Virus record (IMG/VR): IMGVR_UViG_3300014911_000395
Length of the DNA: 50,821 nucleotides
Reading direction: 5' to 3' (one strand)
Source: a virus
The notes under the pieces: generated by a model
What the model was told of the DNA's origin: nothing
Seen by the model: only the letters and a program-made list of their open reading frames with translations
The model's database searches: none
Shown here: positions 361-29,074 of the stretch, piece after piece
Position numbering within the stretch: the first letter of the stretch is position 1
Layout of the letters: each line of letters opens with the position of its first letter
Program-made: the position numbers and the translations under genes

Positions 361-1551
361 TCACGCTAAAGCGTGTGAGGTTCCTGCTTCTACTGAGAGA
401 AGCAGAGGGCTTGCCACAGCCCCGTTAACGACTCCCCTTTCAGCGAGCCCTATATTCACACACCCAACAGCATCCCTGTGTGCTTCAAGCTTGCAATCGA
501 GACACTTGAACAATCTCTTGTATTTAATCACATTTCTCGAATGACATCTCGGACATACTGAAGAAGTATAGGATTCATTCACTTCAATCACTTTTATGCC
601 GTATTCTTCGGCTTTCTCTTTAATTCTTTGTACTAAATATCTGTGACTCCAAAAGTTGTGTATCATTGAATTCGCCTTCTTCCCCCTTGAGTTATTGTTT
701 CTGATGCCGTTTAAATTTCCCATAACAATCTCTGAAACTCCTTTGTTATAGCAAAGCCCAACAAATCTACTAACAACAGTGTTTACTGCATGTCTGAATC
801 TGCGTTTGCGTTTTCTGTATAATCGCCTGAGTTGTTTGGATGTATGCTTATCGTTTGTCTCTTTCAACACAGATTGGTGTTCAGCAATCTTTTTAGTCCA
901 ATACCACCAATCTGATAACAAGGAATTTCCACTGTATCCAATCAACATACCTTCAATTTCTGCCATTATCAGAACTCTAACACCCAAATCGCAGTATGCC
1001 CTCTTTTCTCCAATTGGTTGATGTAGAGGTTCAACCTCTACAGGTTGAAAGGCATACCACGATTTGCTCAGGTCATCGTATACTATCTCTAAACGTCCCT
1101 GTTTTCCTTCCCACCTGTTTTTACCGCTCCATCTTATTCTCAACCCAAATGGTAGCTTTAACACATCACCTCCCAAACTATAACAATCACATCTGACAAG
1201 AATTCTCAGGGTTCTTTTACCTGTCTTGCGGTCTTTCCAGTATCTCGGTGGTTTTATCTGATTGATATGTGGTGGAAGCTTTCCCTTCTGCTTTAGTTTT
1301 AACAAAGCGAAATAAGATTTCCAAGCTTCGTTGTTCTTTATGATTATCTGTTGAGCTGTTGCTGAACCCACCAGTCGCTTGTACTTATTGTACTCCTCAT
1401 CAGTATTCCAGTCTATTTCTCCATTGAAGAAAGATTGCCTCCTCCTATAATTAACCTCATTCCACAATCGAGAGCAGTTGTCGGCTAACTCGAAAAGCCT
1501 TTTCTCTTGCTCCTTTGTGGGTTTTAGCTTAAAGGTGTTAGTTCTCCTCAT
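361..1551 (-). CDS. tnpB: TnpB RNA-guided nuclease
   Basis: N-terminal MRRTNTFKLKPTKEQ; RuvC motifs YCDLG, IVMGNL/VNESYTS, AHRDAVG; CPRC...CLDC zinc finger. Start set at ATG 1551, overlapping the tnpA stop. Confidence 0.93.
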   Translation of the reverse strand: MRRTNTFKLKPTKEQEKRLFELADNCSRLWNEVNYRRRQSFFNGEIDWNTDEEYNKYKRLVGSATAQQIIIKNNEAWKSYFALLKLKQKGKLPPHINQIKPPRYWKDRKTGKRTLRILVRCDCYSLGGDVLKLPFGLRIRWSGKNRWEGKQGRLEIVYDDLSKSWYAFQPVEVEPLHQPIGEKRAYCDLGVRVLIMAEIEGMLIGYSGNSLLSDWWYWTKKIAEHQSVLKETNDKHTSKQLRRLYRKRKRRFRHAVNTVVSRFVGLCYNKGVSEIVMGNLNGIRNNNSRGKKANSMIHNFWSHRYLVQRIKEKAEEYGIKVIEVNESYTSSVCPRCHSRNVIKYKRLFKCLDCKLEAHRDAVGCVNIGLAERGVVNGAVASPLLLSVEAGTSHALA

Positions 1552-1961
1552 TTTCCCTTCTGTTCTTCTATATATTTCTTTACAACTTCGAGAGTTACAG
1601 TCCCAACCGATGATATAAACTTTGAATGAGTCCACAAAGTTGGGAGTCTACTTCTTAGTTCTGGAAACTCTTTTCTGAGAATTCGGGATGTATAACCTTT
1701 GATCTTGTTAACAATCCTGAAAACACCTATCTTTGGATTTACGTCCAACAGTAGGTGAACGTGGTCTGGCAGAATCTCCATATCAAGTACTTTATACCCA
1801 TACTCTTCTTGTTTCTCCAGAATTAACTCTCTAAGCCTTCTTGCTACATCTCCTTTAAGTACAGCTCTTCTATACTTTGGACAGAATATAACGTGATATT
1901 GGCAACTGTACACTAAGTGGTTGTCTGATTTATATTGTTTTGTAGGAGTTTCTATTCTCAT
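1548..1961 (-). CDS. tnpA: IS200-type Y1 HUH transposase
   Basis: YHVIFCPKYRR, HUH motif DHVHLL, KIKGYTSR, LWT, catalytic KKYIEEQ. Confidence 0.95.
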   Translation of the reverse strand: MRIETPTKQYKSDNHLVYSCQYHVIFCPKYRRAVLKGDVARRLRELILEKQEEYGYKVLDMEILPDHVHLLLDVNPKIGVFRIVNKIKGYTSRILRKEFPELRSRLPTLWTHSKFISSVGTVTLEVVKKYIEEQKGK

Positions 1962-14311: not shown

Positions 14312-15571
14312 TCACGCTAAAGCGTGTGAGGTTCCTGCTTCTAAGGGCTTCATCAACATCGGAGTCTCATCAGCTTTTACCTCAACTCCTTCCTCAACCC
14401 TTAGAAGCAAAGGGTGTGCCAGCACCCCGTTAAACCCGTCTCCACGGAGACGGGCTATATTCAACACACCTACAACATCTCTATGAGCTTCAATTCCGCA
14501 ATTTAAGCATTTGAACAACCTCTTACTTTTAACAACTTTTCTTGAATGACACCATGGGCATTCAGATGAAGAGTATGCTTCGTTTCTTGCTTTAACTTTT
14601 ATACCGAAGTTCTCTGCTGTTACCTTTAGTCTTTCCATGACGTAGTTGAAGCTCCAGAAGTTGTGTATCATTGCATTGACCTTACTTCCCTTATCGTTGT
14701 TATCCCTGATGTGCGTTACATCTCCAACAACGATTTCGCCAACTCCCTTAAGATGACACAACCTCACGAATCTAAACACAATTGTGTTTACGGCATTTCT
14801 GAACCTCAACTTTCTCTTGCGATACAGCCTTCTAAGTCGTTTTGAAGTGTTCTTACCGTTTATCGTCTTAAGTTTAGATTGGTGTTTGGCAATCTTTTCA
14901 GTCCAATACCACCAATCTGCCAAGAGTGGTTTACCGCTAAATGCCATTGCTTGTTTCTCTCCTTCAATCCAAGCTGTTATGATGTTTATTACTCCCAAAT
15001 CTACGAAAGCTTTTACGAGAGAGGTGGTACTTGGTTGATTAACTTCAACTGATTGATAAGCATACCACCTTCCCGTTAAATCGTCGTAGAATATTTCTAA
15101 CCTTCCCTGTTTTCCCTTCCACCTCATCTCACCAGTTATTCTAATCCTCAAACCTTTAGGCAAAATCAAAAACTTCTTTCCTCTCACCTCCTCAATTCTA
15201 TAACAGTCGTTTCTAATGACGGTCATTAATTTCCTTCTTCCAGTTTTTCTGTCTTTCCAGTAGCGGGGAGGAGAAATTCTATTGACATGTTTTGGTAGCT
15301 TCCTTTGTTTCTTTAACTTTAACAGTCTGAGGAAACTCCTCCAAGCCTCGTCATTCTTCCTTATAATTTGCTGAGTCGTTGCAGAACCGAGTATTTTCTT
15401 AAATTCGTTGTACTCTTCTTTGGTGTTCCAATCAATGTTACCTGAAAAGAAAGACTGTCTTCGCTTATAGTTCACTTTGTTCCATAACACCGCTGACATC
15501 TCACATAGGGTTAACAGAGCCTTCTCTTGCTTCTTAGTTGGTCTTAACCTTAGTTTGTTAGTTCTTTTCAT
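14312..15571 (-). CDS. tnpB: TnpB RNA-guided nuclease
   Basis: FVDLGV, IVVGDV/RNEAYSS, AHRDVVG; CPWC...CLNC; paralogue of 361..1551. Confidence 0.93.
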   Translation of the reverse strand: MKRTNKLRLRPTKKQEKALLTLCEMSAVLWNKVNYKRRQSFFSGNIDWNTKEEYNEFKKILGSATTQQIIRKNDEAWRSFLRLLKLKKQRKLPKHVNRISPPRYWKDRKTGRRKLMTVIRNDCYRIEEVRGKKFLILPKGLRIRITGEMRWKGKQGRLEIFYDDLTGRWYAYQSVEVNQPSTTSLVKAFVDLGVINIITAWIEGEKQAMAFSGKPLLADWWYWTEKIAKHQSKLKTINGKNTSKRLRRLYRKRKLRFRNAVNTIVFRFVRLCHLKGVGEIVVGDVTHIRDNNDKGSKVNAMIHNFWSFNYVMERLKVTAENFGIKVKARNEAYSSSECPWCHSRKVVKSKRLFKCLNCGIEAHRDVVGVLNIARLRGDGFNGVLAHPLLLRVEEGVEVKADETPMLMKPLEAGTSHALA

Positions 15572-16763: not shown

Positions 16764-17107
16764 TATTCTCCCTCCAATTCTGATAACATCTCCACAAGAT
16801 AGCTCTTTACCTCGTGGAAGATCGTTGTGAGCCTGTTTATCTTACCAACCGATGGTGCAGTCATAACCACGTCGATTGTTGACGTGACACTTATATCTCT
16901 AACGTTAACCTTTGGCTTGTACCTTATCCTCGTCGATAAGGAGTCCTGTTGCTGGCTGACTTCAATCACTATCGTGTCTTTGTGGTGATTTGGTCTTTCA
17001 AGTATCGCAAAACCACCGTCCGTCGTGTAGTTTGCATAGCTGACGCTCCAGCCGTCTTTAATCAGGTTTTCTATTAACTTGTTAAATCCCTTAGCCATGC
17101 TATCCAC
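16763..17107 (-). CDS. Hypothetical protein
   Basis: 114-aa ORF in operon. Confidence 0.6.
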   Translation of the reverse strand: MDSMAKGFNKLIENLIKDGWSVSYANYTTDGGFAILERPNHHKDTIVIEVSQQQDSLSTRIRYKPKVNVRDISVTSTIDVVMTAPSVGKINRLTTIFHEVKSYLVEMLSELEGE

Positions 17108-17450
17108 CTACAACTCCATCACTTTTTGGCACAAACTTATCCACAAACAAACCAATCAGCTCTTCAGCGAGGATATCCTCAACGCACCACTCGGTAGCCA
17201 AGTCCTTGGCAAGGTCGGCGTCAACAGCACCTCTACCGTCGGGTAGTATTTCAACAAAGTTGAACAGCTCTATTATCCATCCAGCAATCCTTTTCGCCTT
17301 CTCCACGTCGAACTTAGCTTTTACCATCGCCATTCTAACGAAACTCGGTTCGTGTACGACCAAATCGTCCCATAACTCATCTATATCTTCTTTAATTACC
17401 AAATCGTTTTCATATCTAATATACACCCTTCTTCCTTCATCAACCATCAC
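17100..17450 (-). CDS. Hypothetical protein
   Basis: 116-aa ORF, AGGAGGTG RBS at the end of the non-coding array region. Confidence 0.6.
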   Translation of the reverse strand: MMVDEGRRVYIRYENDLVIKEDIDELWDDLVVHEPSFVRMAMVKAKFDVEKAKRIAGWIIELFNFVEILPDGRGAVDADLAKDLATEWCVEDILAEELIGLFVDKFVPKSDGVVGG

Positions 17451-17799
17451 AACACCTCCTATATGCTGATTGAACTTAGGTTGTTATGCTGCATGTTCTA
17501 ATCTAAAAGGAGATGGCATGGAAGCTTGCTATACAGGGATTGCTATGTACGGAAAGGTATGTCTGAAGTATTCTGCACTGAAAATGCGGGGATGAATTTA
17601 CGCTAAATTATGCGGCGGAAGTGGTCGGATTTATTCCAGAGCCGCCATTCAATACAATGTGAACTGTATTGGTCAGATATAAGGTGTATTAACTGGCGGG
17701 TTTGATTTGGCAGTATAGACCATAACTTGCCAGCTTGAGTTGTTATGGAAGAATTTGGTTCTAAGAGGTCTGACGGAAAGGCTCTATGCCGAATCTGGG

Positions 17800-17907
17800 G
17801 GTTGTACGTTGAGCTGTGGTATTGAATGAGGTCAGATGGAATAGTTCTGGTTTGTAGTGTATTACGTGCCTAATTTGGGAGGTTGTACGTTGAGCTGTGG
17901 TATTGAA
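17800..17907. repeat. 27-bp exact direct repeat, period 81 bp
   Basis: GGTTGTACGTTGAGCTGTGGTATTGAA at 17800-17826 and 17881-17907. Confidence 0.95.
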
Positions 17908-18141
17908 GTACCAGAGCAGACATTAGTCGACGGATTTGCATTAAAATGAAATAGTTGGCTTAATGGATTTGACTTGAGTTATATTGAATGCCTGAAAGAG
18001 TAGGTTTTGATCTGTATGCTGGAACTATTCTGAAATCATCTGGAAGGTGTGAGCGTAGAAGGATATAACCTCCTTGCTTGGTCTGCTCTATTCCTGTTTT
18101 GCTCTGTTTGAAATCTGTATTGTACTGACTGTCTGTTTTAT

Positions 18142-18406
18142 CTTCCCGTTGCTTGCAAGACCCCTTCCGCAAGGGAGGGGATACGCAAGGGGAGGCGGGT
18201 GGGTAAGGTTTAAATACTCTGAGGATACAAGATATAACGACCTCGTAACAGCCGTAAGGCTGGACAGCCCGTAAGGGCTGGTGAAGTAGTCCGTGAGTCC
18301 GAATGGATAACGGATAGTGGCTGTGTGAACCAGCCTGTGGGGATAAGGCAAGCAACGACCTGCAAACTCCCCACGAAGCTCCTTCCGTAAGGTAGGTGTA
18401 GTTCAC
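18142..18406 (+). mobile_element. 265-bp non-autonomous IS605-type miniature element related to element D
   Basis: Left hairpin CCCCTTCC-GCAA-GGGAGGGG and downstream promoter match 22081-22139; right end GAAG...GTAGTTCAC matches 23829-23859; follows TTAT; no ORF. Confidence 0.88.
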
Positions 18407-18426
18407 ACTAATGAAATTTACTTGAT
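18240..18426 (+). ncRNA. Putative stand-alone TnpB omega-RNA (scaffold plus ~20-nt flank-derived guide)
   Basis: TTTAAATA box at 18209-18216; GTAA-loop hairpins; stems covary with the right-end RNA of element D. 5' boundary approximate. Confidence 0.6.
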
Positions 18427-18889
18427 GGTTTTACTTTGGATGTTTTTGCTTGACGGTCTTGAATTGTTTTATTTTAATCGTGCCATGTTTGTCTGGTTTG
18501 CCATATATGAGCATGTTTGTTTAAACTATCTTGGAAGGACATATTTGTCTGAAATGTCTTGAAAGAACATGTTTGACTGAAGTACGTTAGCATAAGCGGC
18601 TCGTTTGAGCTGTAAGGTCAGATACAATATTAATATAGCAGGCTCGCTTGTAGTACTTTGTGCTGTAAGGATACGAATTATTGTATATTTGATTTGTAGG
18701 TGTGATATGAATTGTTTGGTTATAAATTGTAAGTCTGATTTATTTTGTTTTGGAGAAAAATGTTTGATTGGCTTGATTTGTGCTGGATTGTTCGTTTGCT
18801 CTGTACGATACTGATGTAATGTGGAAGCTTGGCGTACTCTGCAAACCGTAAACCAACCAACACGTACAGGGATTTTCCACCCTATTTGG

Positions 18890-19597
18890 TTACTCACCTC
18901 CTCCGATCTTCTCAACCTTGACCTCACACTTGCCCATTCCCAAACTCCTATCTCCGAGGAAACCTATGTTGCCCATTATGTAGCCCATAGTCTTGAGGAT
19001 TTCCTTGGTAAAGAGCTTTCTTGACACGCTGTCAACGACCTCGATTACGAAGCTGAACTCAACTGGAGGCTCTAAGTATTCGAGGAGCTTGTAGCTACTC
19101 CTGCCACCCTTGGGCGTCATGACCTGTATCGGTCTCTTTAGAATTCCATCTGGCTCTCTGATAACTTTTCCGTCCCTCGTCAGGTAGATTTTGAACTTCT
19201 CGTTACCAACGAACGAGTCACCGTATGGGAAGACATAGACGCCGTGATTTATAGCCTCTCTGTATCCCCTCATCTTTAGAATTCTGAAGTGTTCCTTCAG
19301 CCAGCCTTTTACGTGTCTTTCCTCGATGTAAATTCCCGTCTTGTCTCTCAGGAAAACGTTTAGCTTATCCTCATCCTCTTCCTCAACCTCCATCTCTTCC
19401 TCTTCCATAGCTTCCATCGTTTCTACAAGTTCCTCCTCCATTTTCTTCTTTAGCTTCTCTGCCTCCTCATCAGTCATCTTCTCTTCCTTCTGAACCGTCC
19501 TTGCTATGTATGGTATCGCCGCCATGCTCGATGGGAAGTTGCCGACGGTCGTGTTCAGGGTCTTCACTTCAAACTTTATTTTCTCAAACCGTACCAT
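18890..19597 (-). CDS. Solitary Cas7-group RAMP-like protein (Csm3/Csf2-like)
   Basis: N-terminal strand then G-x-x-P; VFLRDKTGIYIEERHVKGWLK; VYVFP; RPIQVMTPKGGR thumb; EFSFVIEV; C-terminal G-rich loop GNIGFLGDRSLGMGKCEV. No other cas gene in the genome. Confidence 0.78.
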   Translation of the reverse strand: MVRFEKIKFEVKTLNTTVGNFPSSMAAIPYIARTVQKEEKMTDEEAEKLKKKMEEELVETMEAMEEEEMEVEEEDEDKLNVFLRDKTGIYIEERHVKGWLKEHFRILKMRGYREAINHGVYVFPYGDSFVGNEKFKIYLTRDGKVIREPDGILKRPIQVMTPKGGRSSYKLLEYLEPPVEFSFVIEVVDSVSRKLFTKEILKTMGYIMGNIGFLGDRSLGMGKCEVKVEKIGGGE

Positions 19598-19628
19598 CCT
19601 ATCACCAGTAAAAAATGGTTGGTAACGG

Positions 19629-19640
19629 TATAAAAAGGTT
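19629..19640 (-). promoter_or_regulatory. Promoter of the Cas7-like gene
   Basis: AACC-TTTTTATA on the minus strand about 32 nt upstream of the ATG; GGTGAT RBS. Confidence 0.55.
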
Positions 19641-22000: not shown

Positions 22001-22161
22001 TACTTTTTCCTCTAACCCTATGGTATATATAGGTTACGATACCCTATCTCAACCGCTTTTTAACTCACTCGGCGAGAAGTCCCCTTCCGAAAGGGAGGGG
22101 ATACAGTAGGGGAGGTGGGCGGGTAAGGTTTAAATACTTTAAGCTATTAAAAATATAATAG

Positions 22162-22632
22162 ATGAAATTTGAGAAAGTAAGAGAACCAACAAAAATTACA
22201 TACGACAAGTTCAGCAGAGAAAGAATAGTTAAGATTTCGGAACTCTGCCAATATTGTCCAAACGAGAATTGTGAAGGATACTATCGTAGAGATGCTCCCA
22301 ATGCTTGTCTAACATTCTATGCGTGGAAAGATGGCGAACTAACACTGGAACAAGCAATTAAAGCAAAGTACAAGCAAAATGAGAGACACCATAAAACTGA
22401 TCCAATAAGAGATCTGATCTTTGGATGGCTTGAAGATCAGTGTTTCGATTATGAAGATCGTGTTCTTGCTGGTTCTGTTGCATCGGAGATTGTCAAAGGC
22501 GTACCAATTAAGGAAGCTCTGAAAGGTACGCCTTTCTACTTAAGCAATGTACAAATTCAAATAATCAAACAAAAGTTGAAAGGGGTAGGAGTATATGTTC
22601 AAAACTCAGAAAAACCACATCAGATGCAATAA
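22162..22632 (+). CDS. Passenger protein of element D with a Cys cluster
   Basis: 156 aa, C-x2-C-x4-C-x11-C; lies between the left-end promoter and tnpB; no HUH or serine-recombinase motifs. Confidence 0.65.
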   Translation: MKFEKVREPTKITYDKFSRERIVKISELCQYCPNENCEGYYRRDAPNACLTFYAWKDGELTLEQAIKAKYKQNERHHKTDPIRDLIFGWLEDQCFDYEDRVLAGSVASEIVKGVPIKEALKGTPFYLSNVQIQIIKQKLKGVGVYVQNSEKPHQMQ

Positions 22633-23854
22633 GAAAACATATAGGATTCTTAGAATGCTTACTCGACTCTCCAAAAACCTATACAACTTCACCCTTTATA
22701 CTATTAGACAGTACTACTTCAACAACGGGAAGTACCTTCCCTATGAACAAGCTTACCACTTGGTCAAGCAAAACGAGAACTATCAACTGCTCCCTTCACA
22801 GGTAGCTCAGCAAACAATGAAAGTCGTTGACAGATGCATGAAATCTTTTTTCAGGCTTCTAAAAGAGAGAAAGAAAGGCAATTACAACCGTCCTATACAT
22901 CTTCCAAGATACTTGTCTAAGAATGGATACTTTGTCTGCATCTTTCAAAAAGATATGTTCAAGGTTAATGGAAACAAGATTAGGTTGTCATTAGGTAGAA
23001 ACTTCGCAAAGAAGTTTGACGTTAGATTTCTGGAGTTTAAGCTCCCACCAACCGTTGTCGGTAAAAAGATTAAGGAGGTGAGAGTCCTACCTCGTTGTAG
23101 GGGTTTGTGGTTCGAGATAGAGTATGTGTATGAGGTAGAACCAGAAAAGGTGGATTTAGACTACAGTAACTACTTAGCGATTGACTTAGGCTTGGATAAC
23201 TTTGCCACCTGCGTTTCCACCAGCGGGACTCCCTTCATTATTGAGGGGAGGGGTTTAAAGTCTTTCAACCGCTGGTGGAACGCAAAGAAAGCAAAACTAC
23301 AATCAATATATGACAAGCAAGGGATAAAGATGGGCAAAAAGATGGCTTGGCTTTTGAGAAAGCGTAAAAACGTAGTGAACAACTTCATGAATCAGGCTGT
23401 GAACTACATCGCCAAATACTGTCTAAGCAACAGGATTGGCAATATCGTAATCGGAGAGCTTAAAGAAATTAAGCAAAACATAAAACTCGGCAGGAAAAAC
23501 AACCAAAACTTTCAATACATTCCTTACGGTTTGTTCAAACAAAAACTCAAATCAAAGTGCGAATATTACGGGATAAATTACATCGAAGTTGATGAAGCTT
23601 ACACGTCTCAGACTTGCTCAATCTGCGGAGACGTAAATAAAAACAACAGAAAACATAGAGGTCTATACGTTTGCAGGAAGTGTGGTTTCGTTGTGAATGC
23701 CGATGTCAACGGTGCTTTGAATATCTTAAAGAAAGTAGCCCCCGAATCCGTAAGGATAGGGGGTAGCGGCGGTGTGAACCCGCCCGTGAGGATAAGGGTG
23801 GTGGATTTCCGCCACCAAACTCCTCACGAAGCCCCGTCCGCAAGGGCGGGGTAG
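22595..23854 (+). CDS. tnpB: TnpB RNA-guided nuclease
   Basis: SKNLYN...RQYYF, LAIDLGLDN, IVIGEL/VDEAYTSQTCSIC, CRKC, NADVNGALNI. Confidence 0.95.
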   Translation: MFKTQKNHIRCNKKTYRILRMLTRLSKNLYNFTLYTIRQYYFNNGKYLPYEQAYHLVKQNENYQLLPSQVAQQTMKVVDRCMKSFFRLLKERKKGNYNRPIHLPRYLSKNGYFVCIFQKDMFKVNGNKIRLSLGRNFAKKFDVRFLEFKLPPTVVGKKIKEVRVLPRCRGLWFEIEYVYEVEPEKVDLDYSNYLAIDLGLDNFATCVSTSGTPFIIEGRGLKSFNRWWNAKKAKLQSIYDKQGIKMGKKMAWLLRKRKNVVNNFMNQAVNYIAKYCLSNRIGNIVIGELKEIKQNIKLGRKNNQNFQYIPYGLFKQKLKSKCEYYGINYIEVDEAYTSQTCSICGDVNKNNRKHRGLYVCRKCGFVVNADVNGALNILKKVAPESVRIGGSGGVNPPVRIRVVDFRHQTPHEAPSARAG

Positions 23855-23865
23855 TTCACTTTCGA

Positions 23866-28216: not shown

Positions 28217-29031
28217 CTCAGACACCCCTTACCTTTGTATAGTACAAATGCCATTATCATTATCAGTAGTAGGACGCCCTCAAGCGGAGCTACACTTACT
28301 CGTTCTTCCTCAACTTCAACTGGCTTGGTCTGAATGTAGAATGGTTTTGTTTTCTCATCGATAATTAGTTCTGAACCTTCTTTATGGCATGCGTAGAATC
28401 TAATCTCATGTTTTCCTTCCCAGCTCGGAACGAAAGTTACCACAAATCGTTTCCTCTCATGCTGGTTTAAGGATATTGTTTGTGCCTGTAGCCATCTACC
28501 TTCGGTCTCGTCTTTGACCCACATGCTTATGTCTCCATATCCACCAATGTTTTCAATCCAAGCCACCGCCTTAAGCGTAGCATTCTTCGGAACTTCCAGA
28601 ATTTGCTCTGGATAAACCACCGTATCCTTTGCATCTATGTAGCAGTTCAACGTATCACATCTGAATCTCGCCTCTGGAGGAGGATAGCCACATCTAAACG
28701 TACAGGTGAAGTTCTCTGAGGCAACCTCTGAGTTATCAACGTATGCTCTTACAACCATGTAGTTACCCGTTGCGTTGCATAGTCCGTAATCTTCCCAATC
28801 TGGAGCTTTTGAAGCTATTCTAAAGTATCCAAACTCATCCGTTCTTGTCTGTATAGGATTTTTATCTTTAACAGTATAGTTTCCAGTTATTATTGCCCCC
28901 GCAACTGGAAAACCATCGTAATACAGGTAGCCCTCTATGACAACTTCGTCTCCTGAGTAGATGTCAGGATAGTTATTTGTTACAGCCTGCTCCTGAACGT
29001 AGTATTTCAAATCGAGAAAGTAATACGTCAA
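28204..29031 (-). CDS. Ig-like protein with C-terminal membrane anchor
   Basis: TTG start after GGGGTGG; APDW...LCN domain shared with 26888..28216; C-terminal LLLIMIMAFVLYK. Confidence 0.65.
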   Translation of the reverse strand: MTYYFLDLKYYVQEQAVTNNYPDIYSGDEVVIEGYLYYDGFPVAGAIITGNYTVKDKNPIQTRTDEFGYFRIASKAPDWEDYGLCNATGNYMVVRAYVDNSEVASENFTCTFRCGYPPPEARFRCDTLNCYIDAKDTVVYPEQILEVPKNATLKAVAWIENIGGYGDISMWVKDETEGRWLQAQTISLNQHERKRFVVTFVPSWEGKHEIRFYACHKEGSELIIDEKTKPFYIQTKPVEVEEERVSVAPLEGVLLLIMIMAFVLYKGKGCLRWRP

Positions 29032-29074
29032 GCTACCACCCCTACCGATACAATTATTGACGCCATTATGTCTG

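What the first reader, a model, noticed from the sequence alone, without database searches (positions are those of the whole stretch)
17460..19640. Solitary Cas7-like gene followed by a 5-nt-periodic non-coding array: candidate non-CRISPR RNA-guided system
Seen: a promoter-bearing gene with RAMP/Cas7 hallmarks (G-rich loop GFLGDRSLGMG, KGWLK, RPIQVMTPKGGR) and no other cas gene or CRISPR array in the genome. It is followed on the same strand by ~1.2 kb (excluding the miniature IS) of non-coding DNA, the longest gene-free stretch in the genome. That DNA is enriched in CAR-NN pentamer runs (CAATC CAGCA CAAAT CAAGC CAATC; CAGTA CAATA CAGAT; CAATA TAACT CAAGT CAAAT; CAGAG CAAAA CAGGA; at least 20 CAR-NN-CAR pairs by hand). 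Runs are broken by phase shifts, often after CCTT(A/C), and ATCTGACC recurs three times. Established: Cas7 proteins oligomerise along RNA with a fixed nucleotide period. From recall, not verified: viral stand-alone Cas7-like proteins with pentameric GGY-NN RNAs (VIPR), where NN positions encode a gapped target, were reported recently. Inference: this is an archaeal-virus counterpart with a different constant triplet (CAR/YAR), possibly silencing competing elements or host genes. The periodicity is degenerate and some 4-nt spacing also occurs.
Basis: partly seen in the sequence, partly recalled or inferred. Interest (0 to 1): 0.92.

Follow-up and report, generated by a model that had tools for sequence, protein, structure and literature searches.

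The report
Archaeal-virus VIPR guide-RNA locus
A lone Cas7-like protein gene in this archaeal virus-like genome is followed by about 1.2 kb of five-base-step repeats, so it belongs to the VIPR RNA-guided DNA-silencing systems first described in 2026, with an unusual guanine-free repeat.

Summary
With the IS-derived insert removed, the tract shows 25 CAR pairs at lag 5, against 2.5±1.6 in local shuffles (0 of 1000 reach it). Lags 3 and 6 show none. The tract holds 22 in-phase chains of 5-6 pentamers, against 2.2 expected.

The motif is better described as Y-M-N-N-N. Position 1 is C/T in 98% of units; position 2 is A in 73% and C in 24%. Chains are spaced 28 or 33 nt apart, that is pentamers plus a 3-nt slip.

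The 235-aa protein has no Pfam hit but folds as a RAMP (Csm3 Z 12.1, Cmr4 Z 11.5). Its family profile aligns to the phage SUSP1 Vipr protein (hhalign E 4.8e-5).

All 12 close homologue loci carry a same-strand pentamer array, mostly T-C-N-N-N, with 8+5n module spacing. Two elements that are 86% identical lose all similarity exactly at the array.

This is therefore a VIPR-type locus. VIPR systems, non-canonical motifs and staggered arrays are already in 2026 preprints, and this scan has noted VIPR loci in at least 10 other genomes. I class it as a new member of a known kind.

Transcription, the transcribed strand, protein binding and targets remain untested. The insert may have damaged the array.

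The parts
19629..19636 (-). TATA-like box (TTTTTATA) of the vipr-like gene. It lies 32 nt upstream of the ATG, and GGTGAT lies just before the start.
   Evidence: Read directly from the sequence. Its role as an archaeal promoter is inferred from the consensus only.
18890..19597 (-). vipr-like gene encoding a 235-aa stand-alone RAMP. In the model it has an RRM core, a helical insertion (about residues 27-66), a long beta-hairpin thumb (about 151-175) and the glycine-rich loop GFLGDRSLGMG (212-222).
   Evidence: ORF. AF2 model with pLDDT 78. RAMP fold matches. 284 family representatives at E<=1e-3. hhalign to SUSP1 Vipr gives E 4.8e-5. The profile also hits Csm4 and a type VII Cas7 in PDB sequences at E about 1e-4.
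18411..18889 (-). Array part A. A non-periodic leader of about 65 nt is followed by Y-M-N-N-N pentamer chains from 18823 to 18452. CAG(N)C delimiter-like words lie at 18785, 18737, 18665, 18612, 18579, 18551 and 18495.
18465..18580 (-). Four tandem 28-nt modules. Each is an 8-nt long unit plus four pentamers, about 77% alike.
   Evidence: TRF finds period 28. Recurring words are spaced 28 nt apart. Chain starts lie at 18571, 18543 and 18515.
18150..18410 (+). Miniature IS605-type element (MITE) inserted into the array. It consists of the left end plus the right end of the TnpB element at 22077-23859. Boundaries are approximate.
   Evidence: blastn gives 83% over 82 nt and 72% over 127 nt. It is strongly structured (z -4.7 and -3.9). 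No Rfam match.
17451..18149 (-). Array part B, made of Y-M-N-N-N chains. They are densest at 18149-17930 and 17582-17459. Chain starts are often 28 or 33 nt apart. The part ends at the ribosome-binding site of the next minus-strand gene (17100..17450).
17787..17907 (-). Two copies of a 41-nt repeat (93% alike, 81 nt apart) inside part B. Each contains ACAGCTCAA. Their role is unknown.

Best explanation
This is a VIPR-type RNA-guided locus of an archaeal virus-like element. It consists of a stand-alone Vipr-family RAMP protein and, downstream on the same strand, a roughly 1.18-kb array of five-base units. The array is now split by a 260-bp transposon-derived insert.

Each unit has two fixed bases and three free bases. 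The first fixed base is a pyrimidine and the second is mostly A, sometimes C. Units come in blocks of about five or six, separated by a 3-nt slip.

By analogy with the characterised phage SUSP1 system, the likely mechanism is as follows.
- The array is transcribed, most likely on the gene strand, and cut into short guide RNAs.
- One protein copy binds each five-base unit and hides the fixed bases.
- The free bases are presented to pair with a gapped sequence in double-stranded DNA of a competing mobile element or host gene, whose transcription is blocked.

Shown here: the fold, the periodic array, the family-wide pairing of gene and array, hypervariability of the array between related elements, and distant sequence homology to a tested Vipr.

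Inferred only: transcription, strand, processing, binding, the pairing rule and the targets.
For: Protein:
- It has a RAMP fold: Csm3 6ae2_B Z 12.1 (rmsd 3.0, 149 aligned) and Cmr4 4w8w_A Z 11.5. The top 22 of 48,161 chains are all CRISPR RAMPs.
- Foldseek finds Csm3/Cas7 at E about 1e-4.
- The best BFVD match is an unnamed viral protein at E 1.6e-16, followed by a viral protein annotated as RAMP superfamily at E 1.2e-10.
- A profile of 148 family members aligns to SUSP1 Vipr over 129 columns, including the G-loop (E 4.8e-5, probability 68%).

Array in the window: the period-5 signal has z 10-14.5, and there are 22 in-phase chains against 2.2 expected.

Family-wide association:
- In each of the seven first homologue loci, the strongest period-5 stretch lies in the array next to the gene, apart from L003, where the peak is about 1.4 kb downstream.
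- T-C (C-C in L005) lag-5 z is 3.8-11.
- Five more loci behave the same way.
- Two distant members have NNNTG and NNNYG arrays on the gene strand.

Shared architecture: delimiters are spaced 28, 33, 38 or 43 nt (8+5n) in relatives. Chain spacings of 28 and 33 nt recur in the window.

Hypervariability: L003 and L007 are 86% identical up to the vipr stop codon, show no similarity in the array, and resume similarity beyond it.

Minimal module: only the vipr gene is shared between the window and the relatives' loci.

Reference locus: in SUSP1 the YNNGG arrays lie on the vipr strand, both upstream and downstream. The published description of VIPR fits.
Against: - Expression, strand and processing are therefore unproven.
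- The window's array is less regular than the cleanest relatives. Posterior periodic fraction is 0.80 against 0.85-0.98. No chain exceeds 6 units. It is interrupted by a MITE.
- The fixed dinucleotide is mostly C-A here, but T-C or C-C in all 12 close relatives. Yet the G-loop Asp-Arg and the thumb Arg are unchanged. Decay or drift is therefore possible.
- The canonical GGY/NN motif is absent.
- No conserved tail or pseudoknot was found, and no conserved accessory (vap) gene.
- No target was found under any pairing rule.
- Homology to SUSP1 Vipr rests on a single-sequence template at 68% probability.
Confidence: 0.75

Rival explanations
1. Same kind of locus, but the window's array is a decaying relic. 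After the MITE insertion, or after loss of selection, the repeats drifted from the clade's T-C type towards A-rich C-A units. The protein may be idle, or it may be served by guides encoded elsewhere.
For: - A MITE sits inside the array.
- Chains are never longer than 6 units, and only 35-44% of each half is called periodic by Viterbi decoding.
- Position 2 is A 73% here, but C 63-98% in all relatives.
- The RNA-contacting Asp-Arg of the G-loop is unchanged.
Against: - The protein ORF is intact, with all 37 clade-invariant residues.
- The periodic signal is still 10-14 sd above shuffles and spans both halves.
- The 28/33-nt module spacing is preserved.
- Relatives L003, L007 and L001 are about as irregular and also have 15-29% A at position 2.
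- The VIPR paper itself notes frequent internal degeneracy of vrRNAs.
- No other period-5 array exists in the window.
Confidence: 0.2
2. The guides are transcribed from the opposite (plus) strand. The RNA units would then read N-N-N-T-R in the window and G-R-N-N-N in relatives, which is closer to the guanine-containing motifs of published VIPR systems.
For: - The reverse complement of the L005 array reads close to GGY-NN, and that of L006 reads G-R-H-N-N (sequence; composition).
- The window's plus-strand motif T-G equals the gene-strand motif of distant member L011.
- T5-T6 runs directly after the vipr stop codon in L001, L002 and L004 could terminate the mRNA before the array.
Against: - In SUSP1, L010 and L011 the arrays are on the gene strand.
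- On the gene strand all four types share one form, a pyrimidine followed by a clade-specific base. They also share a 3-nt insertion between the two fixed bases at delimiters: T[CAG]C against T[CGA]G.
- Arrays lie inside one-directional gene strings. They begin at the stop codon (L006) and end at the next gene's ribosome-binding site, leaving no room for an antisense promoter.
- The polarity relative to the gene is the same whether the array is upstream (L004) or downstream.
Confidence: 0.25
3. The periodic DNA is not a guide-RNA gene. It acts as DNA, for example as iterated binding sites for a replication or chromatin protein or as bent DNA, and the RAMP gene merely lies next to it.
For: - Homologues often sit in replication modules with PCNA-like, primase-helicase, MCM and RadA genes.
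- Lag-10 and lag-15 signals exist.
Against: - Lag 5 is much stronger than lag 10.
- The signal is strand-specific in composition: G is 13-18% on the gene strand.
- Only the RAMP gene travels with the array, across otherwise unrelated contexts.
- The array is hypervariable between 86%-identical elements, which does not fit conserved protein-binding iterons.
- The same gene-plus-array pairing is experimentally an RNA system in SUSP1.
Confidence: 0.04

Closest known systems
VIPR systems (Vipr protein + vrRNA): type II of Escherichia phage SUSP1, and the seven types of bioRxiv 10.64898/2026.04.26.720920. Structures are in 10.64898/2026.04.26.720927.
   Same: - A stand-alone minimal RAMP with G-loop, thumb and helical insertion.
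- A 5-nt tandem-repeat array on the gene strand beside the gene.
- No CRISPR array or cas genes, and carriage on a virus or mobile element.
- An array that is hypervariable between related elements.
- Distant profile homology to SUSP1 Vipr.
   Different: - The fixed part is a guanine-free Y-M dinucleotide (C-A here, T-C in relatives) with three free positions, instead of GGY with two.
- The G-loop has Asp-Arg where SUSP1 has Asp-Trp.
- No 3' tail or pseudoknot and no conserved vap gene were found.
- The array is built of 28-43-nt blocks rather than RNAs of about 100 nt with their own promoters.
Non-canonical VIPR arrays (GAC/NN, CAC/NN, WGT/NN, TGH/NN) and 'staggered' vrRNA arrays (bioRxiv 10.64898/2026.10.21.760802; Fig. 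S18 of 10.64898/2026.04.26.720920)
   Same: - Period-5 arrays with fixed bases other than GGY beside Vipr-like folds.
- Continuous arrays in which one short guide abuts the next.
   Different: I could not see the supplementary logos or member lists. Whether this clade's T-C/C-A motif and 8+5n blocks are among them is therefore unknown. The published examples have three fixed positions, and this clade has two.
Cas7-family backbone subunits of class 1 CRISPR effectors (Csm3, Cmr4, type VII Cas7)
   Same: They share the fold (Z 11-12). The mode of binding one protomer per fixed RNA step is established for Cas7 and for Vipr.
   Different: - There is no CRISPR repeat-spacer array, no Cas5, Cas6, Cas10 or Cas11, and no adaptation genes in the window.
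- The step is 5 nt, not 6.
- There is no sequence-level Pfam RAMP hit for this protein.
TRAP (trp RNA-binding attenuation protein) of Bacillus, recalled from my own knowledge and not tested here
   Same: It is a protein oligomer that reads triplets spaced by 2-3 nt, so the bound RNA also has a period of about 5 nt.
   Different: - It has an unrelated fold (an 11-mer beta-ring).
- It binds mRNA leaders rather than guide arrays.
- It has no role in DNA targeting.
- The RAMP fold found here argues against this analogy.

Membership tests
VIPR (Vipr + vrRNA) | The protein is a minimal RAMP: one RRM core, a glycine-rich loop and a thumb, plus a helical bundle. | tested here: met
   The AF2 model matches Csm3, Cmr4 and Cas7 at Z 10-12 over residues 1-235. 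The G-loop lies at 212-222, a beta-hairpin at 151-175 and helices at 27-66.
VIPR (Vipr + vrRNA) | Sequence homology to an experimentally characterised Vipr (SUSP1). | tested here: inconclusive
   hhalign of the 148-member profile against the single SUSP1 sequence gives E 4.8e-5 over 129 columns, but probability is only 68%. The 12-member profile aligns only the G-loop. Pairwise BLASTP finds nothing. No Vipr chain was matched in the PDB sequence copy.
VIPR (Vipr + vrRNA) | A non-coding array of tandem 5-nt units, with fixed and variable positions, beside the gene. | tested here: met
   Window. Twelve close relatives and two distant ones.
VIPR (Vipr + vrRNA) | The repeat consensus is GGY/NN or a published variant (NNNGG, YNNNG, NNNNG). 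| tested here: not met
   The gene-strand consensus is Y-M-N-N-N with G at most 1% at the fixed positions. Read on the other strand it would fall under NNNNG. Other non-GGY motifs, such as CAC/NN, are published as divergent VIPR. This feature therefore no longer excludes membership.
VIPR (Vipr + vrRNA) | Variable positions are hypervariable between related loci while the protein is conserved. | tested here: met
   L003 and L007 are 86% identical through the vipr gene and show no similarity in the array. This could not be tested for the window itself, because the only other copies are identical assemblies.
VIPR (Vipr + vrRNA) | The locus lacks a CRISPR array and other cas genes, and lies on a virus or mobile element. 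| tested here: met
   No CRISPR-like repeats in the window. No cas Pfam families were found in the 15 window ORFs scanned. A tyrosine integrase lies next to the gene, and MCM and TnpB elements lie in the window.
VIPR (Vipr + vrRNA) | An accessory vap gene next to vipr. | tested here: not met
   No neighbour of the window's gene has a homologue in any relative's locus. The paper says loci 'typically' have a vap gene, so this is not strictly required.
VIPR (Vipr + vrRNA) | vrRNAs are expressed, co-purify with the protein and silence DNA by gapped pairing. | not testable with these tools
No genome is held for the window.
Class 1 CRISPR-Cas effector (Cas7 backbone) | A CRISPR repeat-spacer array and partner cas genes (Cas5, Cas6, large and small subunits). 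| tested here: not met
   No such repeats and no such genes among the 15 window ORFs scanned. The homologue loci also show none in their precomputed Pfam lists.

The most novel reading that the evidence does not exclude
This archaeal-virus clade may use a different VIPR code. The protein would sequester only two guanine-free bases (pyrimidine plus C or A), leaving three bases per pentamer free. Guides would be 28-43-nt blocks set off by a 3-nt insertion between the two fixed bases.

There is also a natural switch in the clade. Loci with a T-rich first position have the G-loop LQEGQ. The window and L005, with a C-rich first position, have LGMG[KR]. This switch could point to the residues that read the fixed bases, which would allow orthogonal, engineerable VIPR codes.
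Probability: 0.3. Interest if true: 0.7.

Novelty: new member of a known kind. Interest (0 to 1): 0.45.

Why it matters
VIPR is a newly described class of RNA-guided system (2026) with a gapped code, proposed as an ancestor of the CRISPR RAMPs. This locus and its 12 relatives place the system in hyperthermophile-type archaeal viruses and plasmids. They also show that the fixed part of the repeat can be guanine-free and only two bases long.

Within proteins that are 41-47% identical, the fixed bases shift from T-C through C-C to C-A. This gives a natural series for working out how Vipr proteins read their repeat, and whether three rather than two bases per unit can specify the target.

There is a practical consequence for annotation. 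Gene callers place spurious ORFs of up to 680 aa on these arrays.

Tried and rejected
- Family and RNA libraries gave nothing for the protein or the tract. Pfam, PHROGs and NCBIfam were searched for the protein. Rfam was searched at gathering and E<=1 thresholds. tRNA search found nothing.
- blastn of the locus against phage and plasmid collections found no match. tblastn against phages gave only weak hits to a Hydrogenobaculum phage (E 3e-5) and a Microcystis phage (E 0.2).
- A viral-contig scan for close relatives found none.
- Local target searches used all in-phase guides of the window and 11 relatives. They were run against about 150 kb of held loci (about 300 kb counting both strands) under nine or more pairing rules: 2 or 3 paired bases and skips of 0-3. 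Observed matches equalled shuffled controls, apart from trivial self-hits.
- Four IMG/VR pattern scans were run with modules from L006 and L014.
  - One rule (three paired bases plus a 1-nt skip) gave an exact 21/21 match in two related contigs of a T7-like tailed phage.
  - The other 19 L006 guides are not enriched on that phage.
  - My rough estimate of chance matches is 0.03-0.1 per scan, so I treat this as probably chance.
- The window's own tracts give too few specified bases (at most 15-18) for an informative collection scan.
- Complex prediction with three copies of the protein returned no verdict.
- Chance or base composition as the source of the periodicity is rejected.
- Simple slippage microsatellite is rejected, because the units differ at the free positions.
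- CRISPR mini-array is rejected. The only CRISPR-like feature is a single 30-41-nt repeat pair 81 nt apart.
Full report
**What is there**

The finding covers a 235-aa gene at 18890..19597 on the minus strand and the 1,439 nt downstream of it (17451-18889), which ends at the next minus-strand gene. The gene has a TTTTTATA box at 19629-19636, 32 nt upstream of its ATG, and a GGTGAT just before the start. The protein has no significant hit in Pfam, PHROGs or NCBIfam. The tract has no Rfam or tRNA match.

**Is the periodicity real?**

Yes.
- On the minus strand of 17451-18889, CAR occurs 104 times. It forms 25 pairs at lag 5, against 4.6±2.0 in dinucleotide-preserving shuffles (z 10).
- There are no pairs at lags 3 or 6, where 4.5 are expected. 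Lag 4 shows a weaker excess (12 against 4.7).
- After removing the insert and shuffling only within 30-nt blocks, to keep local composition, CAR lag 5 is 25 against 2.5±1.6 (z 14.5, 0 of 1000 shuffles).
- Under the same control, Y-A lag 5 is 95 against 38.5 (z 9.8). Lags 10 and 15 are also raised.
- The best 200-nt windows of the whole 50.8-kb sequence for C-A or Y-A lag-5 pairs all lie in this region. No other period-5 array of any dinucleotide stands out elsewhere.

**A better description of the motif**

A cyclic hidden Markov model trained without prior motif describes the unit as Y-M-N-N-N.
- Position 1 is C 67% / T 31%.
- Position 2 is A 73% / C 24%.
- G is at most 1% at both positions, and the other three positions are nearly free.

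There are 22 chains of at least five in-phase units (118 units), against 2.2±1.3 chains in shuffles. The chains are 5-6 units long. Their starts are often 28 or 33 nt apart, which is n pentamers plus a 3-nt slip. Four 28-nt modules in tandem lie at 18465-18580.

**The insert**

Positions 18157-18237 and 18284-18406 match the left and right ends of the IS605-type element at 22077-23859, which carries a TnpB gene (83% and 72% identity). This is a miniature derivative of that element sitting inside the array, and it is strongly structured.

**The protein**

An AlphaFold2 model built on 12 homologues (pLDDT 78) was searched against 48,161 representative PDB chains without prefilter.
- The top 22 rows are all CRISPR RAMPs: Csm3 6ae2_B at Z 12.1 (rmsd 3.0, 149 aligned), Csm3 9g9a_D at 11.8, Cmr4 4w8w_A at 11.5 and type VII Cas7 8yhd_A at 11.4.
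- Foldseek agrees.
- Among viral models, the best match is an unnamed protein at E 1.6e-16. It is followed by a viral protein annotated as RAMP superfamily.
- The model shows the expected parts: a helical insertion after strand 1, a long beta-hairpin (thumb) and the glycine-rich loop before the last strand.

An exhaustive phmmer search finds 284 representative clusters at E<=1e-3, so this is a large family. A profile of 148 members hits Csm4 and a type VII Cas7 in PDB sequences at about 1e-4 through the G-loop.

**Link to the published system**

It consists of a stand-alone RAMP (Vipr) plus vrRNAs of 9-16 YNNGG units and a 3' tail. One protomer binds each unit, GGY is sequestered, and NN pairs with double-stranded DNA while skipping every third target base. 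The system silences competing phages and satellites. Seven types are described, and it also occurs in archaeal viruses.

I located the reference locus in phage SUSP1 (KT454805.2). The vipr gene is at 28474..29061 (-). YNNGG arrays lie on the same strand, both upstream and downstream. The 148-member profile aligns to SUSP1 Vipr over 129 columns, from helix 1 to the last strand (E 4.8e-5, probability 68%). The G-loop Asp that reads G1 in SUSP1 corresponds to invariant D216 here. The neighbouring Trp is replaced by invariant R217.

**Do homologues carry such tracts?**

This was the strongest test, and it passed.
- I fetched seven loci of proteins 41-47% identical to the window's. For each I scanned for period 4, 5, 6 and 7 information. 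In six of the seven, the strongest period-5 window falls in the array region next to the gene. In L003 the peak lies about 1.4 kb downstream, although a period-5 signal is also present beside the gene.
- The arrays lie on the gene strand and are G-poor (13-18% G). They consist of T-C-N-N-N units (C-C in L005), with lag-5 z of 3.8 to 11.
- The cleanest examples are L006 2436-3213, L002 6646-6990 and L004 5363-5975. L004 is upstream of its gene.
- Five more loci from a metagenome scan behave the same way.
- Two distant family members, one of them from a bacterial MAG, have gene-strand arrays of NNNTG and NNNYG.

Across the clade the unit is Y-M-N-N-N. Position 2 is C in 63-98% of units and A in 0-29%. 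The window sits at the A-rich end of that range.

Delimiters are strongly over-represented. These are T[CAG]C in the close clade and Y[CGA]G in the distant ones. They are spaced 28, 33, 38 or 43 nt apart, which is 8+5n. The window shows the same block structure. This resembles the 'staggered arrays' mentioned in the VIPR paper.

Gene callers had placed ORFs of 187-680 aa on several of these arrays. I regard these ORFs as spurious.

**Hypervariability and modularity**

L003 and L007 are 86% identical over about 5.9 kb, up to the stop codon of the vipr homologue. They show no detectable similarity through the array, and similarity resumes beyond it. No neighbour of the window's gene is conserved in any relative's locus. 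The mobile unit is therefore gene plus array, without a conserved accessory gene.

**Which strand is transcribed?**

I could not obtain RNA data. I favour the gene strand, at about 70%.

For the gene strand:
- It is the arrangement in SUSP1, L010 and L011.
- On that strand all types share one form, a pyrimidine followed by a clade-specific base, and a 3-nt insertion between the fixed bases at delimiters.
- The arrays lie within one-directional gene strings. They start at the stop codon and end at the next gene's ribosome-binding site.

For the opposite strand:
- The complement of the relatives' arrays reads G-R-N-N-N. In L005 it is nearly GGY-NN, which is closer to the canonical motif.
- T5-T6 runs follow the stop codon in L001, L002 and L004.

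**Is the window's array working?**

This is uncertain.

Against function:
- It is split by the MITE.
- Its chains never exceed six units.
- Its dominant C-A differs from all relatives, while the putative RNA-contact residues are unchanged.

For function:
- The protein is intact.
- The signal spans both halves, and the block spacing is preserved.
- L001, L003 and L007 are about as irregular.

One correlation deserves testing. The window and L005 have a C-rich first position, and they are the two whose G-loop reads LGMG[KR] instead of LQEGQ.

**Targets**

None were found.
- Guides from 12 arrays were searched against all held loci under nine or more gapped rules. They gave no excess over shuffled guides.
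- Four IMG/VR scans gave one exact 21/21 gapped match, from L006 module 1 under the rule of three paired bases plus one skipped. The match is in a T7-like tailed phage.
- The remaining L006 guides are not enriched on that phage. My rough expectation of chance hits is 0.03-0.1 per scan, so I treat the match as probably chance.

**Comparison and novelty**

The locus meets the structural, architectural and contextual features of VIPR. It fails only on the canonical GGY/NN consensus and on a vap gene.

The consensus is no longer a strict criterion. The original paper lists NNNGG, YNNNG and NNNNG variants. An October 2026 preprint reports 21 non-canonical clusters beside Vipr-like folds, including GAC/NN, CAC/NN, WGT/NN and TGH/NN.

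This scan has already noted VIPR-type loci in at least 10 other genomes, including a cytosine-phased one whose strand was left open. None of them is a sequence relative of this protein.

I therefore file the locus as a new member of a known kind. Its distinctive traits are a guanine-free two-base constant, 8+5n blocks, an archaeal tailless-virus context and a natural T-C to C-A series. Whether the published supplementary data already include this clade could not be checked.

Noticed in passing
window 18150-18410; parent element 22077-23859: The insert in the array is a miniature IS605-type element, made of the left and right ends of the TnpB element at 22077-23859. It folds far better than shuffles on both strands.
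   Followed up: partly
window 361-1635 (-), 14312-15571 (-), 22595-23854 (+): Three TnpB (OrfB_IS605 plus Cas12f1-like TNB) genes lie in one 50.8-kb virus-like genome, so there is heavy IS200/IS605 activity around the VIPR locus.
   Followed up: partly
L001 6667-8709; L004 5363-6022; L007 6265-6828; L003 6641-7327; window 17960-18406: Gene callers place ORFs of 148-680 aa on the pentamer arrays, or on the MITE in the window. These G-poor repeats carry few stop codons. The ORFs have no family hits and are probably spurious.
   Followed up: partly
alignment A1, G-loop (window residues 218-223), against arrays of the window, L005 and the other relatives: The two loci with a C-rich first repeat position (window and L005) are the two whose G-loop reads LGMG[KR] instead of LQEGQ. 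This may be a specificity determinant. The comparison is only 2 loci against 10, and it is not phylogenetically controlled.
   Followed up: partly
L020 1919-1945 and L021 4002-4028 (IMG/VR contigs; G001:C1:16452-16478): Module 1 of the L006 array matches a T7-like phage exactly at 21 of 21 specified bases. The rule is three paired bases plus one skipped, and the site is the junction of two structural-region ORFs. Other guides are not enriched there, so this is probably chance.
   Followed up: yes
L015 and L018 (contig Ga0190312_1000015, 100 kb): One 100-kb metagenome contig carries two copies of the vipr homologue about 46 kb apart. Each has its own T-C pentamer array.
   Followed up: no
window 17787-17826 and 17867-17907: A 41-nt repeat pair (93% alike) lies inside array part B. 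Each copy contains the delimiter-like word ACAGCTCAA. It could be a duplicated module or a conserved RNA end.
   Followed up: partly
L001, L002, L004: first 10-25 nt after the vipr stop codon: T5-T6 runs directly follow the stop codon in three relatives. This suggests that the vipr mRNA may terminate before the array, in which case the array would need its own promoter.
   Followed up: no
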